A stretch of DNA of 64,000 bases from Escherichia phage S143_2. Position 1 is the first letter of the stretch. Every line of letters begins with the position of its first letter. The position numbers and the translations under genes were made by a program. The notes beneath the pieces are model-generated. The model searched no databases. It saw only the letters and a program-made list of their open reading frames with translations, and was not told the origin of the DNA. Positions 3,817 to 11,415 of the stretch are shown in pieces. The DNA lies in sequence record MZ189261.1; one strand, 5' to 3'.

Positions 3817-4773
3817 TTATTTGAAAGGTTTTACCATATGGAAATTTTGTTTGAAACGTTTGACGTAATCATCATGTCCTAAGCTTTGGTACATACTTAC
3901 TACTTTGCTGTAGTTTTCCCAGGCATACTCACGGAACCAACCAGAGGTGATGCTTGTACAGACTTTTTCCAATGCCATCATAAAACTGGCTTCAGGGTTA
4001 ATTTTAAAGTCATTAGGAATTTGAGAACGTTCTAATGCTAGTACACATGATTCTTCGTATACACCGGCCAATTTGACCATTTCTGGTAACGATTCAAACT
4101 TCTCGCGTGAGGTCATGACTTCAGAACCGTCTTTCATATAAAATGTATACGCTGGACGGTCTGTTAGTGCAATGGCTTCATGAATAGTATCATGGTCATA
4201 CGTATAGATGTCATCTTTAAAGAACGCACTTTTAGAAGTGTCAAGAACTGGGTGAGCATAGTTCAAGGTTTCTTTCTGGCGTTTCAGCATAATTTCAGTA
4301 AGTTCATCGTTCAGTGTAACACCTTTACCACGAAGATACTGAATATGGTTCATAGTCTTTAAAAAGAATGGATTATTTTTCTTGAAACGATGAGACAACT
4401 TAATTGCAAGACATATCTCAGGAGTTGCCCAGTAAAACCCGTTCAAACGGTCTTTAGTCAAATTTTTCTTGGCGTATTTTAAAAGGTCATAAGAAGACGT
4501 GAAATCTTCAGGAGTGAGTTCACCTACTAATTCACGGACATTAGTGATTGCCGGAACAATATATGCTTCAAAATGAGTTTCGCGTCCATTATGGAAGCAT
4601 TTGAAAACTTGGACATCAGGGTTATCTTGATGAACATATACACCCATCATTTGATTTTTGAATGCATTCCAAGAACCTTGGTCTGCAATAAAGTCCCAGT
4701 CACTATTTTTGATAGCGTTAGAATCAATAAGACCATGATAGTGAAGTGCACGAGAACCAATAACTAACATCAT
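3817..4773 (-). CDS. hypothetical protein (318 aa), possible nucleotidyltransferase-fold N-terminus
   Basis: Strong SD GAGGAAAA; N-terminal LVIGSRA...SDWDFIA loosely fits the G[GS]...DxD NTase pattern; no family recognised. Confidence 0.6.
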   Translation of the reverse strand: MMLVIGSRALHYHGLIDSNAIKNSDWDFIADQGSWNAFKNQMMGVYVHQDNPDVQVFKCFHNGRETHFEAYIVPAITNVRELVGELTPEDFTSSYDLLKYAKKNLTKDRLNGFYWATPEICLAIKLSHRFKKNNPFFLKTMNHIQYLRGKGVTLNDELTEIMLKRQKETLNYAHPVLDTSKSAFFKDDIYTYDHDTIHEAIALTDRPAYTFYMKDGSEVMTSREKFESLPEMVKLAGVYEESCVLALERSQIPNDFKINPEASFMMALEKVCTSITSGWFREYAWENYSKVVSMYQSLGHDDYVKRFKQNFHMVKPFK

Positions 4774-8827: not shown

Positions 8828-9454
8828 TTACTTACGAGTTTTTGCATACTGAGCAGCGTCAGCAGCCAAACGACCTGCCTGACGAAGTTTTTCTTTAATC
8901 GCATCGTGAAGTGGTTGAGTATACTTCAAACCTTCGATAGTCAAATAAAGACGATAAAGGTCTGGGGTGTCAAGGTTGTTGATATGTTGGCCATTACGAA
9001 GAATATTGAATTCACGAACGAGTGAAGATGTATCAGATTCAATATCACGAACAAGCGAAGATAGTTGTTTATATTTTTTTTCCAGGCTAGAAGTATCAAA
9101 CTTAAGAGCAGGAGCTTTAGGAGTTGCTTTTACTTCCGGCTTAGGCTCAGGTTTTGCTACTGCTTTAGGGGTCGCAGGTTTAGGAGTGGTAGGAGCAGGT
9201 TTCACTTTAGGCGAACCCGATTTAGCAGAAACACCACCACTAACAATATCTTTGAATGCTTTAGAAGCTCTGTAATATTCTTTTTGGCTGGAAGTGTCGA
9301 TACCGTACATGGCTTGAACGTTTTTGAAAAACTCTGTACTAGTTTTTGTACCAGAAATAGCATCGTAAGCAGCTTGCCATTTCTCTTTTGTCATACGTAC
9401 ACCGGCTTCGGTGATTACTTCCGTTTCGGCTAAAAATTCATTAAAAGTATACAT
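8828..9454 (-). CDS. internal-protein-like capsid-targeted protein (208 aa), Pro/Lys-rich central region
   Basis: N-terminus MYTFNEFLAETE resembles the IP targeting sequence; late promoter TATAAATA 36 nt upstream. Confidence 0.5.
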   Translation of the reverse strand: MYTFNEFLAETEVITEAGVRMTKEKWQAAYDAISGTKTSTEFFKNVQAMYGIDTSSQKEYYRASKAFKDIVSGGVSAKSGSPKVKPAPTTPKPATPKAVAKPEPKPEVKATPKAPALKFDTSSLEKKYKQLSSLVRDIESDTSSLVREFNILRNGQHINNLDTPDLYRLYLTIEGLKYTQPLHDAIKEKLRQAGRLAADAAQYAKTRK

Positions 9455-9489
9455 TGATGGTCCTTAGAAAGTAGGTTTATTGTTTACTA

Positions 9490-9497
9490 TATTTATA
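9490..9497 (-). promoter_or_regulatory. T4-type late promoter TATAAATA
   Basis: Exact TATAAATA on minus strand upstream of the 8828..9454 start. Confidence 0.6.
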
Positions 9498-9498
9498 C

Positions 9499-9529
9499 AA
9501 AAAAGCCCCAACCTTTCGGAAGGGGCTAT
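9499..9529 (-). terminator. rho-independent terminator
   Basis: Minus strand AGCCCCTTCCGAAAGGTTGGGGCT followed by TTTTTTG. Confidence 0.7.
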
Positions 9530-9829
9530 ATACCTTGTCGGGGTTCCACCTACTAAGGCAAGTGTTTGTACGAAACGCCGGGGTTCGAACCCGGTTATTA
9601 AGCAGTTGACGCTACTCAATATTTTTAAAAGGCCATATCTCGACCATATCCGAACGTTCCGTCAAAAACGCTACTCGGCTTACGGCAAAGATATTTCCTC
9701 GAATCGATAATTCGGTGCGCCGTTTCTGCTGTGGTGTAAGGGGATATTAACAAATCGTAAAGATTTATTAAGACCAGTCCTTACTCAGGGAACATCAGTC
9801 CGACGACTTACCGGTAGCGACCCGGCTTC

Positions 9830-10174
9830 TTATTTTGGCATATCATCAATTTGCTCTCGACGCCGACGCCATAGATTAATCGCTTCATTAACACATTCGG
9901 CGTTTGGTATATGACGGCAATAATATAATGATTCGCGTTTCTGGAACCGATGTTGCAATGGGATTTCGTTTAAAAGGTCTTTACGGTCAAAGTATTCAAA
10001 ACTAGTTAACCCGGAACGGTTTTTAATGAACTTCCAATGACCGAATTCATTTTGAACATAGATGTAATCTGCGTGTTGGTATAACAAATTAATCAATCGG
10101 TCTGAAATAACTGTATCATGTTCGTTAAAATAAAACGTTAAATCATGAACTACTAAGTAAACATTACCTTTCAT
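9830..10174 (-). CDS. hypothetical protein (114 aa)
   Basis: Start trimmed to ATG 10174 with GAGGAAAA SD; the longer track ORF would overlap tRNA-Arg. Confidence 0.55.
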   Translation of the reverse strand: MKGNVYLVVHDLTFYFNEHDTVISDRLINLLYQHADYIYVQNEFGHWKFIKNRSGLTSFEYFDRKDLLNEIPLQHRFQKRESLYYCRHIPNAECVNEAINLWRRRREQIDDMPK

Positions 10175-10192
10175 ATTTTCCTCACTTAAAGT

Positions 10193-10269
<77 letters not shown>

Positions 10270-10273
10270 TATT

Positions 10274-10348
10274 TGGCGGACGTGATAGGATTCGAACCTA
10301 TAACCAATCGCTTAACAGGCGATCGCTCTGCCATTGAGCTACACATCC
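10274..10348 (-). tRNA. tRNA-Asn (anticodon GUU), CCA encoded
   Basis: Acceptor GGATGTG/CACGTCC, anticodon stem ATCGC/GCGAT, loop CTGTTAA, T-arm ATAGG TTCGAAT CCTAT. Confidence 0.8.
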
Positions 10349-10352
10349 AAAT

Positions 10353-10439
10353 TGGTGGGGAGTGATGGAGTCGAACCACCCGAGTCGCAATGACAATGGA
10401 TTTACAGTCCACACCGCTACCTCTACGGGATAACTCCCC
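10353..10439 (-). tRNA. tRNA-Tyr (anticodon GUA), long variable arm, CCA encoded
   Basis: Acceptor GGGGAGT/ACTCCCC, anticodon loop CTGTAAA, T-loop TTCGACT. Confidence 0.75.
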
Positions 10440-10451
10440 TAATTCATAATT

Positions 10452-10526
10452 TGGTGGCCCTGGGTGGAATTGAACCACCATCTGGCGATTATGAGTCGCT
10501 TGCTTGAACCTTCCAGCTACAGGGCC
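10452..10526 (-). tRNA. tRNA with anticodon CAU (Ile lysidine-type by T4 synteny, or Met)
   Basis: Acceptor GGCCCTG/CAGGGCC, anticodon loop CTCATAA, T-arm GGTGG TTCAATT CCACC. Confidence 0.75.
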
Positions 10527-10527
10527 T

Positions 10528-10603
10528 TGGTGCTGATTGACGGAATCGAACCGCCGACCTTCTCATTACAAGTGAGTTGCTCTACCTACTGAGCTAAATC
10601 AGC
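10528..10603 (-). tRNA. tRNA-Thr (anticodon UGU), CCA encoded
   Basis: Acceptor GCTGATT/AATCAGC, D-arm GCTC AGTAGGTA GAGC, anticodon loop CTTGTAA. Confidence 0.8.
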
Positions 10604-10608
10604 AAAAC

Positions 10609-10698
10609 TGGCGGAGGCGATAGGATTTGAACCTATGAGTCGCCGGAGCGACTGCCGGTTTTCAAGACCGGTGCATTAAACCACTCTGCCACGCCTCC
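10609..10698 (-). tRNA. tRNA-Ser (anticodon UGA), long variable arm, CCA encoded
   Basis: Acceptor GGAGGCG/CGCCTCC, anticodon stem CCGGT/ACCGG, loop CTTGAAA. Confidence 0.8.
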
Positions 10699-10700
10699 AG

Positions 10701-10774
10701 TCTCCATACAAGGATTTGAACCTTGGGCCTCCTGATCCCAAATCAGGCGCTCTACCAAACTGAGCTACACGGAG
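10701..10774 (-). tRNA. tRNA-Pro (anticodon UGG), no encoded CCA
   Basis: Acceptor CTCCGTG/TATGGAG, anticodon stem CCTGA/TCAGG, loop TTTGGGA; 2-nt spacer to tRNA-Ser. Confidence 0.8.
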
Positions 10775-10784
10775 TAAATTAAAT

Positions 10785-10858
<74 letters not shown>

Positions 10859-10863
10859 AAATT

Positions 10864-10950
10864 TGGTGCGAGAAGTGGGACTCGAACCCACAAGGAAATC
10901 ATTCCGCAGCATTTTAAGTGCTGTGCCTTTACCAATTTGGCCATTCTCGC
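10864..10950 (-). tRNA. tRNA-Leu (anticodon UAA), long variable arm, CCA encoded
   Basis: Acceptor GCGAGAA/TTCTCGC, anticodon loop CTTAAAA, T-arm GTGGG TTCGAGT CCCAC. Confidence 0.8.
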
Positions 10951-10951
10951 G

Positions 10952-11024
10952 CTGGGAATAAAGGACTCGAACCTTTGCATCCTGGAATCAAAATCCAGTG
11001 CCTTACCAACTTGGCTAATTCCCA
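10952..11024 (-). tRNA. tRNA-Gln (anticodon UUG), no encoded CCA
   Basis: Acceptor TGGGAAT/ATTCCCA (U1:A72), anticodon stem CTGGA/TCCAG, loop TTTTGAT; 1-nt spacer to tRNA-Leu. Confidence 0.8.
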
Positions 11025-11121
11025 ATTATTAACAAAGGCTCTCTAACAAGAACCCTTGATGATAGAGGGTATTAATCAGTGCGATATGAGTTAATAATAA
11101 CAAATAATTCTTAAAGCATAT

Positions 11122-11415
11122 TTACCATTTATGATAATACATATTTACGATGCAGTCAAGACCCAAAGGATTCTTGAAAATATCATATTCAAGAGGACCT
11201 TTTTCCGTTTCAATAAAGAAATCAAAATTTACTGTATTAAATTTACGGTCTTCCTTCACTAATTTAACTTGAGAAGATGAACGGTCAATGTAAACCTTTT
11301 CAACTTCAAAACATGTTAAAATGCCATAATCATCAATCAAGGCTTTAGCCGCGTCTTGATCATATTTATATCCATTTTCAATAGACGATACTTTAGCATA
11401 AAGAATCATTATCAA
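11122..11415 (-). CDS. hypothetical protein (97 aa)
   Basis: ORF; stop overlaps next gene start. Confidence 0.45.
   Translation of the reverse strand: MIMILYAKVSSIENGYKYDQDAAKALIDDYGILTCFEVEKVYIDRSSSQVKLVKEDRKFNTVNFDFFIETEKGPLEYDIFKNPLGLDCIVNMYYHKW

What the first reader, a model, noticed from the sequence alone, without database searches (positions are those of the whole stretch)
9530..9829. About 300-bp ORF-free interval downstream of tRNA-Arg with structured elements: candidate small RNA locus
No convincing ORF on either strand (the 76-aa plus-strand ORF 9480..9710 spans a terminator and promoter). The interval contains a T-arm-like palindrome CCGGGTTCGAACCCCGG and a CGAATcgataATTCG hairpin, and ends at a strong minus-strand terminator. 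I could not fold a canonical tRNA here.
Basis: inference. Interest (0 to 1): 0.45.

Follow-up and report, generated by a model that had tools for sequence, protein, structure and literature searches.

The report
Phage T4 stable RNAs rnaC/rnaD
The "empty" 300 bp holds this T4-like phage's copies of two small stable RNAs known in phage T4 since the 1970s (species 1/rnaC and species 2/rnaD), so the locus is real but not new; their function is still unknown.

Summary
Window 9530-9829 has no conserved ORF. On the minus strand it carries a T-arm-like palindrome (9594..9578) and the CGAAU..AUUCG hairpin (9714..9700), and it runs into an intrinsic terminator (9527..9499).

The interpretation (a small-RNA locus) is right, but the locus is already known. 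The interval aligns base for base with the two misc_RNA genes annotated downstream of tRNA-Arg in phage T4. These are rnaD (species 2 RNA; window 9833..9714, 107/124 identical) and rnaC (species 1 RNA; window 9707..9569, 142/145 identical).

What I add:
- Comparative analysis of 26 distinct rnaC sequences from at least seven T4-like genera supports a tRNA-like four-way junction: a 7-bp acceptor-like stem, a canonical T-arm and two non-tRNA arms.
- The two 6-nt apical loops (UUGACG/CGUCAA) are fully complementary, and they co-vary in two independent lineages.
- rnaC and rnaD are separate modules. rnaC sits alone inside tRNA arrays in Karamvirus and Gelderlandvirus. rnaD occurs alone in Dhakavirus and in a Vequintavirinae phage.
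- Neither RNA matches any Rfam family.

The function remains unknown. I favour a stable tRNA-mimic processed by the host tRNA machinery.

The parts
9714..9833 (-). rnaD (species 2 RNA) orthologue, about 120 nt. Its first bases overlap the TAA stop codon (9832..9830) of the upstream ORF.
   Evidence: Aligns to T4 rnaD (AF158101 71171..71053); 107/124 identical. The 5' segment UAAGUCGUCGGACUGA and the 3' segment CACAGC.GAAACGGCGCAC are invariant in 28 variants.
9810..9826 (-). rnaD 5' hairpin GCCGG-GUCGCUA-CCGGU
   Evidence: RNAalifold. The base pair varies A-U / G-C / G-U, and the next pair changes C-G to U-A in the Vequintavirinae phage A73.
9569..9707 (-). rnaC (species 1 RNA) orthologue, 139 nt by the T4 annotation. 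A conserved tail, U-ACA-A, runs to 9566.
   Evidence: Aligns to T4 rnaC (71046..70908); 142/145 identical. The rnaC covariance model R1 scores 165.5 bits here, and this is the only strong copy in the 64-kb window.
9700..9706 (-). rnaC acceptor-like stem, 5' strand CGAUUCG. It pairs with 9577..9571 (CGUUUCG), with two U.U mismatches.
   Evidence: Pair 3 is A-U in 11 sequences and G-C in 15. The stem is a perfect 7 bp in phiR1-RT and its close relative L036 (Tegunavirus), and keeps all seven pairs with one G-U wobble in L008.
9630..9699 (-). rnaC arm 1, a long interrupted hairpin at the D-arm position. Its apical loop is UUGACG (9665..9660).
   Evidence: Its two helices counted have 12 of 13 pairs with changes on both sides. 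The arm length is nearly constant although the sequence diverges to about 57% identity.
9596..9621 (-). rnaC arm 2, a 10-bp hairpin at the anticodon-arm position. Its 6-nt loop is CGUCAA (9611..9606).
   Evidence: 7 of 9 counted pairs have changes on both sides. The loop is complementary to the arm 1 loop in 26/26 sequences, with two compensatory events.
   Evidence: It is a 5-bp stem with a 7-nt UUCGAAN loop; two pairs co-vary.
9547..9564 (-). Conserved hairpin in the 3' trailer (CACUUGC-CUUA-GUAGGUG)
   Evidence: It is conserved in T4 and Mosigvirus. In Dhakavirus it directly follows rnaD.
9499..9527 (-). Intrinsic terminator closing the tRNA / rnaD / rnaC transcription unit
   Evidence: hairpin plus U-run. 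T4 has the same element. PMC2330249 states that T4 transcription terminates after the species I gene.
9490..9497 (-). TATAAATA, a T4-type late promoter box for the next gene (8828..9454). It is not part of the RNAs.
9830..10174 (-). 114-aa ORF (phrog_3355, function unknown) between tRNA-Arg and rnaD. This is context, not part of the RNAs.
   Evidence: T4 lacks this ORF; there rnaD abuts tRNA-Arg.
10193..11024 (-). Array of 10 tRNA genes (Gln, Leu, Gly, Pro, Ser, Thr, Met-CAU, Tyr, Asn, Arg) upstream on the same strand. This is context.

Best explanation
The interval encodes, on the minus strand, this Mosigvirus-type phage's orthologues of the two small stable RNAs of phage T4: rnaD (species 2, about 120 nt) followed by rnaC (species 1, about 140 nt).

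What the sequence shows:
- Both lie at the 3' end of the tRNA gene cluster, on the same strand, and are closed by an intrinsic terminator.
- rnaC folds as a tRNA-like four-way junction. It has a 7-bp acceptor-like stem stacked on a canonical T-arm and a degenerate CCA-like tail (U-ACA).
- The D-arm and anticodon arm are replaced by a 70-nt arm and a 10-bp arm. Their 6-nt loops are complementary to each other (a loop-loop, or kissing, contact).
- rnaD is a separate structured module. It has a 5' hairpin, an invariant irregular core closed by GUCGUCG/CGGCG(C)AC, and a variable central hairpin.

Inferred from T4 literature and from the structure:
- Both RNAs are co-transcribed with the tRNAs from promoters upstream of the cluster.
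- Host RNase P cuts at the 5' end of the rnaC acceptor stem, which also frees the rnaD 3' end.
- An endonuclease cuts in the A/U-rich stretch AAAAUAAGAAG just upstream of the rnaD hairpin. Exonucleases then trim the trailer back to the stems.
- The compact folds make the products long-lived.

Most likely function (inference, about 35%): rnaC acts in trans as a non-decoding tRNA mimic. It would engage a host or phage factor that recognises the acceptor/T-arm half of tRNA. It would be dispensable in laboratory hosts and useful in some natural hosts. The role of rnaD is unknown.
For: Identity:
- Base-for-base alignment to the T4 misc_RNA features rnaD and rnaC: 142/145 (rnaC) and 107/124 (rnaD) identical.
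- RB10 annotates the same genes as ncRNA.
- 816 phage records hold a match.

Expression in T4:
- RNAC and RNAD were classed as late RNAs and validated by Northern blot. The published RNAC template oligonucleotide is identical to window 9707..9650 (PMC9697503).
- The roles are stated to be unknown (PMC3014915).
- A primary transcript of about 1.75 kb is described as the precursor of eight tRNAs plus species I and II, terminating after species I (PMC2330249).

rnaC structure:
- RNAalifold and single-sequence folds agree in five of seven lineages tested.
- Over 26 distinct sequences, 95.0% of cells are paired against 36-47% for slid partners. 25 of 43 pairs have changes on both sides. 0 of 500 shuffles reach the observed values.

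Kissing loops:
- 6/6 pairs are formed in 26/26 sequences.
- There are two independent compensatory events: C-G to U-A in Tegunavirus and A-U to G-C in the Marfavirus-like Klebsiella phages.
- Cognate duplexes give -4.1 to -7.6 kcal/mol; cross combinations give 0 to -1 kcal/mol.

tRNA-likeness:
- The rnaC model aligns end to end, weakly (about 13-23 bits), with genuine tRNAs.
- Other annotators' tRNA finders call the 3' 95 nt 'tRNA-OTHER' or 'tRNA-Lys'.
- In Karamvirus and Gelderlandvirus, rnaC occupies a slot between tRNA-Trp and tRNA-Gly, with tRNA-like spacing.
- RNase P prefers a 3' CCA-like end (PMC11143913). The tail is U-ACA, U-UCA or U-CCA.

Host-dependent role:
- A convergent SNP arose in rnaD in all phage lines evolved on E. 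coli ECOR34 (PMC12685909).
Against: - No experiment was done on this phage. Transcript ends here are inferred from T4 annotation coordinates, and the exact mature ends are uncertain by 1-3 nt.
- RNase P, RNase E and exonuclease involvement, and T-loop modification, rest on my recollection of 1970s-80s T4 work that the paper library does not hold.
- The trans-acting tRNA-mimic function has no direct support. No partner is known, the tail is not CCA in most lineages, the 6-nt loop is not an anticodon loop, and there is no D-loop to form a tRNA elbow.
- The intramolecular form of the loop-loop contact needs a sharp turn in arm 1, and a dimer is not excluded.
- The rnaD core helices are invariant, so covariation cannot test them. 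The rnaD fold z-score is only -1.9.
Confidence: 0.85

Rival explanations
1. The two RNAs have no trans function. The region is a cis-acting 3' end of the tRNA operon, made of structured spacers that guide processing of the polycistronic precursor and block 3' exonucleases. The stable RNAs seen in T4 are long-lived by-products.
For: The region sits at the operon end, directly before the terminator (PMC2330249). No function has been found in about 50 years (PMC3014915; PMC9697503). From memory, T4 deletions of the tRNA region are viable.
Against: - rnaC occurs on its own in the middle of tRNA arrays in Karamvirus and Gelderlandvirus, where there is no operon end to protect.
- rnaD occurs without rnaC in Dhakavirus and Vequintavirinae.
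- The loops and internal loops are invariant, and the two rnaC loops co-vary. A mere spacer would not need this.
- A convergent SNP in rnaD arose during host adaptation.
Confidence: 0.25
2. rnaC and/or rnaD are base-pairing regulatory small RNAs that target host or phage mRNAs.
For: The literature calls them 'small regulatory RNAs' without evidence (PMC9697503; PMC12685909). Both contain invariant unpaired stretches.
Against: - The best candidate seeds in rnaC (the two 6-nt loops) pair with each other and change together in two lineages. A fixed external target would forbid that.
- After processing there is no Rho-independent 3' end with a U-tail of the kind typical of Hfq-dependent sRNAs.
Confidence: 0.1
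3. The interval is a decayed tRNA gene or genes (pseudogene, or a tRNA with a large insertion) with no function of its own.
For: It has a T-arm and an acceptor-like stem. Some pipelines annotate 'tRNA-OTHER' or 'tRNA-Lys' here. The rnaC model gives weak end-to-end matches to tRNAs.
Against: - ARAGORN and the Rfam tRNA model find nothing here.
- The non-tRNA arms are kept by compensatory substitutions across at least seven genera.
- rnaC is 142/145 identical between T4 and this phage.
- The RNA accumulates stably in T4.
Confidence: 0.03
4. The interval encodes a small protein, as many GenBank records annotate ('hypothetical protein' across the region).
For: The window has a 42-aa ORF at 9625..9753 (-) and a 76-aa ORF on the plus strand. 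'Hypothetical protein' annotations appear in many records.
Against: - The 42-aa frame has an in-frame stop in T4 and several in Gelderlandvirus and Marfavirus homologues.
- Homologues differ by 1- and 2-nt indels.
- The substitution pattern preserves RNA helices.
- No homologue of the ORF start exists where rnaD is absent.
Confidence: 0.01

Closest known systems
Phage T4 rnaC (species 1 RNA, 'RNA C')
   Same: 142/145 identical. Same order (rnaD, rnaC, conserved trailer, terminator), same strand as the tRNA cluster, and the same predicted fold.
   Different: The window has a C at the last T-loop position (UUCGAAC against UUCGAAU) and a G.U instead of an A-U pair in arm 2. Neither change is structurally significant.
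Phage T4 rnaD (species 2 RNA, 'RNA D')
   Same: The 5' and 3' core segments are invariant, and the position directly upstream of rnaC is the same.
   Different: The central hairpin differs (107/124 identical overall). In T4, rnaD abuts tRNA-Arg. Here a 114-aa ORF (phrog_3355) lies between them, and its stop codon overlaps the first bases of rnaD.
Canonical tRNA
   Same: rnaC has a 7-bp acceptor-type stem continuous with a 5-bp T-stem and a 7-nt UUCGAAN loop, and a four-way junction. It sits in a tRNA array slot in some genera. It is probably an RNase P substrate.
   Different: rnaC has no D-arm and no 7-nt anticodon loop. It is about 140 nt long. Its tail is U-ACA-A rather than N-CCA in most lineages. 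Most lineages have two U.U mismatches in the acceptor stem. ARAGORN and the Rfam tRNA model do not detect it.
Other tRNA-like non-coding RNAs that borrow the tRNA processing machinery: the tmRNA tRNA-like domain, bacterial YrlA (Y RNA-like), and phage P1/P7 C4 RNA (from my own knowledge and the reference list of PMC11143913)
   Same: An acceptor/T-arm module is joined to a non-tRNA body, and the RNA is released or matured by RNase P.
   Different: There is no sequence or covariance-model match. YrlA and tmRNA models give nothing on 9480-9840 at E<=10, and ARAGORN finds no tmRNA. rnaC has no tag ORF and no Ro-binding stem. None of those RNAs is described with a loop-loop contact between two replacement arms.

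Membership tests
T4 rnaC (species 1 RNA) | Sequence homology to the annotated T4 rnaC over its whole length | tested here: met
   142/145 identical
T4 rnaC (species 1 RNA) | Position: same strand as the tRNA cluster and downstream of it, directly after rnaD and before the operon terminator | tested here: met
T4 rnaC (species 1 RNA) | Accumulates as a discrete stable RNA of about 140 nt in infected cells | not testable with these tools
   Shown for T4 only (Northern blot, PMC9697503)
T4 rnaD (species 2 RNA) | Sequence homology to the annotated T4 rnaD, including the invariant 5' and 3' core segments | tested here: met
   107/124 identical. The core is invariant in 28 variants.
T4 rnaD (species 2 RNA) | Directly follows a tRNA gene (tRNA-Arg in T4) | tested here: not met
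   A 114-aa ORF intervenes here and in several relatives. This is a difference in context, not in the RNA itself.
Canonical tRNA | Detected as a cloverleaf by ARAGORN or the Rfam RF00005 model | tested here: not met
Canonical tRNA | T-arm (5 bp plus a 7-nt UUCRANY loop) continuous with a 7-bp acceptor stem | tested here: met
   The acceptor stem has two U.U mismatches except in Tegunavirus.
Canonical tRNA | D-arm and a 7-nt anticodon loop | tested here: not met
   They are replaced by a 70-nt arm and a 10-bp arm with a 6-nt loop.
Canonical tRNA | 3' N-CCA end, and aminoacylation | tested here: inconclusive
   The encoded tail is U-ACA-A here, U-UCA-A in Tegunavirus and U-CCA-A in Marfavirus-like phages. 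Post-transcriptional CCA addition and charging cannot be tested here.
Any Rfam 15 family | Covariance-model match at or near the gathering score | tested here: not met
   On 9480-9840 there are only two chance-level hits (NsiR1 at 17.8 bits, isrK at 16.2 bits), both far below gathering scores.
Intrinsic (Rho-independent) terminator (9527..9499) | GC-rich hairpin followed by a U-run on the transcribed strand | tested here: met
   The simple scanner missed it because the stem encloses a 12-nt inner stem-loop.

The most novel reading that the evidence does not exclude
Species 1 RNA (rnaC) is a tRNA-shaped decoy or adaptor. Its body is locked by an intramolecular kissing-loop between two arms that replace the D-arm and anticodon arm. 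It presents only the acceptor/T-arm half of a tRNA to a host or phage tRNA-binding factor (a processing, CCA-adding or modification enzyme, or a tRNA-targeting defence nuclease). This would give a host-specific advantage. rnaD is an independent mobile RNA module shared between T4-like and rV5-like (Vequintavirinae) phages. If so, this would finally assign a function to RNAs known since the 1970s.
Probability: 0.3. Interest if true: 0.65.

Novelty: already known. Interest (0 to 1): 0.3.

Why it matters
As a genome-scan finding this is a rediscovery. Species 1 and 2 RNAs are annotated in the T4 reference genome and have been known since the early tRNA-processing work.

It matters in two modest ways.

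1. Annotation. Most GenBank records of T4-like phages label this stretch 'hypothetical protein', 'tRNA-OTHER' or nothing. No Rfam family exists, so automated annotation keeps missing two conserved non-coding RNA genes.

2. A testable structure. Their function is a 50-year-old loose end in one of the best-studied viruses. The comparative model derived here gives precise mutations to test: a tRNA-like junction, a co-varying 6-bp loop-loop contact, and modular spread of rnaC and rnaD including into Vequintavirinae.

Tried and rejected
- **Rfam and ARAGORN.** Rfam at E<=10 over 9300-11200 finds only the ten tRNAs and chance hits, with nothing for rnaC or rnaD. ARAGORN finds no tRNA or tmRNA in the interval.
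- **Terminator scanner.** The simple promoter/terminator scanner missed the real terminator. Folding shows it.
- **Alternative acceptor pairing.** Internal CGGAACG with 3' CGUUUCG is what ARAGORN-type tools use for 'tRNA-OTHER'. It is better than the terminal pairing in T4. It acquires a mismatch in Karamvirus and fails in Tegunavirus, whereas the terminal pairing co-varies. Rejected.
It is not conserved and overlaps the acceptor strand, so it is probably incidental.
- **The rnaD internal loop GACUGA/GAAA.** Its letters recall the hammerhead core (CUGANGA...GAAA) or a kink-turn. There is no third stem or cleavage site, the tandem G.A geometry does not fit, and no Rfam ribozyme model hits. Not pursued.
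- **rnaD 3' end GCGCACCA as a tRNA-like CCA end.** The final base varies (A/G/U/C), so there is no support.
- **Covariance-model hit L010 1071-1189 (30.5 bits).** It is a chimeric alignment across two adjacent tRNAs, not a homologue.
- **Bacterial genome scan.** A degenerate rnaC pattern gave 4 hits, none confirmed by the covariance model, so they are chance matches.
- **Literature.** The searches that ran and named species 1/species I RNA, p2Sp1, RNAC with T4 phage, or tRNA-like stable RNAs found no functional study. The older primary papers and Miller et al. 2003 are not held.
- **Protein-coding reading.** Rejected.

Full report
**What the window is.** The window comes from a T4-type phage of the Mosigvirus kind. 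The 461 bp around the finding are 98-99% identical to Escherichia phages TH12, moskry and others. On the minus strand there is an array of ten tRNA genes at 11024..10193, in the order Gln, Leu, Gly, Pro, Ser, Thr, Met(CAU), Tyr, Asn, Arg. A 114-aa ORF follows at 10174..9830; it belongs to phrog_3355, of unknown function, with no Pfam match. Next comes the interval in question. A 208-aa ORF (9454..8828) lies beyond it.

**Checking the observation.**
- The T-arm-like palindrome CCGGGTTCGAACCCCGG reads on the minus strand at 9594..9578.
- The CGAATcgataATTCG hairpin lies at 9700..9714.
- In the direction of transcription the interval runs into a hairpin plus U-run at 9527..9499. A T4 late-promoter box TATAAATA follows at 9497..9490.
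- Only mechanical ORFs of 42, 51 and 76 aa overlap the interval.
- ARAGORN and the Rfam tRNA model find no tRNA there.

There is one correction. The interval is not immediately downstream of tRNA-Arg, because the phrog_3355 ORF lies between them.

**What it is.** In the T4 reference record (AF158101), tRNA-Arg is followed by two misc_RNA features. These are rnaD ('small, stable RNA; species 2 RNA', 71171..71053) and rnaC ('species 1 RNA', 71046..70908). The window's minus strand aligns to them base for base.
- rnaD corresponds to 9833..9714 (107/124 identical).
- rnaC corresponds to 9707..9569 (142/145 identical).
- The conserved trailer and the terminator follow as in T4.

RB10 and other curated T-even records annotate the same two genes. 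Most records instead carry 'hypothetical protein' or nothing, and some carry 'tRNA-OTHER' or 'tRNA-Lys' over the 3' two-thirds of rnaC.

In T4 the two RNAs were detected by RNA-seq, and the authors report validating them by Northern blot. The published RNAC template oligonucleotide is identical to window 9707..9650. They are classed as late RNAs 'of yet unknown functions' (PMC9697503). A 2010 review says the same (PMC3014915). [quoted passage not shown]

The locus is a known one, and it holds two RNAs.

**Structure of rnaC.** I collected 26 distinct rnaC sequences. They come from Tequatrovirus, Mosigvirus, Gaprivervirus, Tegunavirus, Karamvirus, Gelderlandvirus, Marfavirus-like Klebsiella phages and uncultivated contigs. 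Identity to the window falls as low as 57%.

RNAalifold gives a four-way junction, and single-sequence folds give the same architecture in five of seven lineages tested. Its parts are:
- a 7-bp acceptor-like stem (window 9706-9700 with 9577-9571);
- a long interrupted arm 1 (9699..9630);
- an A-rich linker of 8-9 nt;
- a 10-bp arm 2 (9621..9596);
- a canonical T-arm (9594..9578);
- a conserved tail, U-NCA-A.

Counted over the alignment, 95.0% of cells form standard pairs, against 36-47% when partners are slid by 1-3 columns. Of 43 pairs, 25 show changes on both sides. No shuffle out of 500 reaches the observed values.

The acceptor stem has two U.U mismatches in most lineages. It is a perfect 7 bp in two of the three Tegunavirus sequences and keeps all seven pairs, with one G-U wobble, in the third. 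Its third pair switches between A-U and G-C.

A covariance model built from the alignment finds one strong copy in the window (165.5 bits). It also aligns weakly but end to end with genuine tRNAs. This agrees with other pipelines calling part of rnaC a tRNA.

**A co-varying loop-loop contact.** The apical loop of arm 1 (UUGACG, 9665..9660) is the exact complement of the 6-nt loop of arm 2 (CGUCAA, 9611..9606). All six pairs are possible in all 26 sequences. The otherwise invariant loops change together twice:
- UUGAUG/CAUCAA in Tegunavirus;
- UUGGCG/CGCCAA in the Marfavirus-like group.

Cognate loop duplexes give -4.1 to -7.6 kcal/mol. Cross combinations give 0 to -1 kcal/mol.

Whether the contact forms within one molecule or between two is not settled. 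As an inference only: arm 2 (10 bp) + kissing helix (6 bp) + the apical helix of arm 1 (6 bp) make about 22 steps. The basal part of arm 1 is about 24 steps. The two parts of arm 1 meet at a conserved 3-nt bulge (R-U-A). Arm 1 keeps its length within about 2 nt while its sequence diverges. This is what a closed, intramolecular arrangement would require.

**Structure of rnaD.** In 28 variants, rnaD has three elements.
- A 5' hairpin (9826..9810). Its basal pairs co-vary.
- An invariant core. GUCGUCG pairs with CGGCG(C)AC. An internal loop GACUGA/GAAA follows, and then a short helix whose first pair is U-A in 17 sequences, A-U in 6 and unpaired in 5.
- A central hairpin that exists in at least four unrelated sequence versions while keeping its basal pairs.

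The core helices never vary, so covariation cannot test them. The thermodynamic signal is weak (z = -1.9).

**The two RNAs are independent modules.**
- In Karamvirus and Gelderlandvirus, rnaC sits alone between tRNA-Trp and tRNA-Gly, spaced like a tRNA, with no rnaD.
- In Tegunavirus, rnaC lies upstream of tRNA-Trp.
- In Dhakavirus, rnaD is joined directly to the trailer and terminator, and rnaC is precisely absent.
- A clear rnaD homologue follows a tRNA-Met(CAU) in the Vequintavirinae phage A73 and about five relatives, outside the T4-like family. It has the same two invariant segments, a compensated 5' hairpin and a shorter central hairpin.
- Upstream of rnaD there may be tRNA-Arg, the end of a phrog_3355-type ORF whose stop codon falls in the first bases of rnaD, or other sequence.

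A degenerate rnaC pattern found nothing genuine in 185,579 bacterial and archaeal genomes.

**How it most likely works.**

Shown: the position, strand and terminator; the homology to RNAs that accumulate in T4; the tRNA-like junction; and the loop-loop covariation.

Inferred from the T4 literature and from the structure:
- Both RNAs are transcribed as the tail of the tRNA operon. A sigma-70-like site lies upstream of tRNA-Gln at 11159..11131.
- RNase P recognises the acceptor/T-arm helix and the degenerate CCA (RNase P prefers a CCA-like 3' end; PMC11143913). It cuts at the 5' end of rnaC, which also releases rnaD.
- The rnaD 5' end is made by endonucleolytic cleavage in the A/U-rich single strand AAAAUAAGAAG just before its hairpin.
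- Exonucleases trim the 3' trailer.

From memory only, and not verifiable in the held library: species 1 RNA was sequenced in 1975 (Paddock and Abelson) and was reported to carry the T-psi-C modification, and T4 deletions removing the whole region are viable.

On function I commit to a non-decoding tRNA mimic acting in trans on a factor that reads the top half of tRNA, at roughly 35%. The main rival, at about 25%, is that the RNAs are long-lived by-products of cis-acting processing and stability elements. A base-pairing regulator is unlikely, because the candidate seeds pair with each other. A pseudogene or a small protein is excluded in practice. A convergent SNP in rnaD in all lines of a T4-like phage evolved on E. 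coli ECOR34 hints at a host-dependent role (PMC12685909).

**Novelty and verdict.** The locus is already known, so interest as a finding is low. The residual value has three parts. Annotation can be corrected, since no Rfam family exists and GenBank mislabelling is widespread. The comparative structure appears in none of the papers I could search. The loop-loop contact gives a concrete experiment for an old open question.

Noticed in passing
window 9830-10174 (-): A 114-aa ORF of family phrog_3355 (unknown function, no Pfam hit) lies between tRNA-Arg and rnaD. Its TAA stop codon (9832..9830) falls within the first bases of rnaD. The same PHROG is annotated next to the last tRNA of the Karamvirus array (L003 2337-2711), so it seems to travel with T4-like tRNA clusters. 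T4 itself lacks it.
   Followed up: partly
L039 1508-1606 (Escherichia phage A73, Vequintavirinae): An rnaD homologue lies directly after tRNA-Met(CAU) in an rV5-like phage, with about five related records. The two core segments are identical to T4, the 5' hairpin carries compensating changes, and the central hairpin is shorter. This suggests transfer of the rnaD module between phage families.
   Followed up: partly
L006 1499-1708 (Dhakavirus IME08); also L041, L045-L048: In these phages rnaD is joined directly to the conserved trailer and terminator, and rnaC is absent at exactly its boundaries. This looks like gain or loss of a discrete gene. L043 has a Dhakavirus-type rnaD followed by rnaC.
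   Followed up: partly
L040 about 4046-4100 (-): In one IMG/VR T4-like contig, rnaD is followed by a different GC-rich sequence (TTTTTATGGAGTTTTTCCAGAGCGGGCGGTGCGCCCGG...) instead of rnaC or the trailer. I did not examine it.
   Followed up: no
window 9792-9797 with 9715-9718 (-), the rnaD internal loop: The invariant internal loop 5'-GACUGA-3' / 5'-GAAA-3' recalls the letters of the hammerhead core. It has no third stem or cleavage site and no Rfam ribozyme hit. The motif is unexplained.
   Followed up: partly
GenBank records under: The rnaC/rnaD stretch is widely misannotated: 'hypothetical protein' ORFs across it (for example G2469_00144), and 'tRNA-OTHER' or 'tRNA-Lys' over the 3' 95 nt of rnaC.
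   Followed up: yes
window 10193-11024 (-): The tRNA array has ten genes, including Tyr, Asn and Met(CAU), and no segB homing-endonuclease gene. T4 has eight tRNAs split by segB. This matches the T2L/RB1/RB3-type arrangement described in PMC2330249.
   Followed up: no
whole window: The T4 late-promoter box TATAAATA occurs 21 times against 7.8 expected from shuffles. Most copies are on the plus strand between 37 and 59 kb, consistent with a block of late genes there.
   Followed up: no
window 9581 (-), T-loop of rnaC: Among the 26 distinct rnaC sequences examined, this window alone has UUCGAAC, where most others have UUCGAAU at the last T-loop position. It is probably neutral.
   Followed up: no
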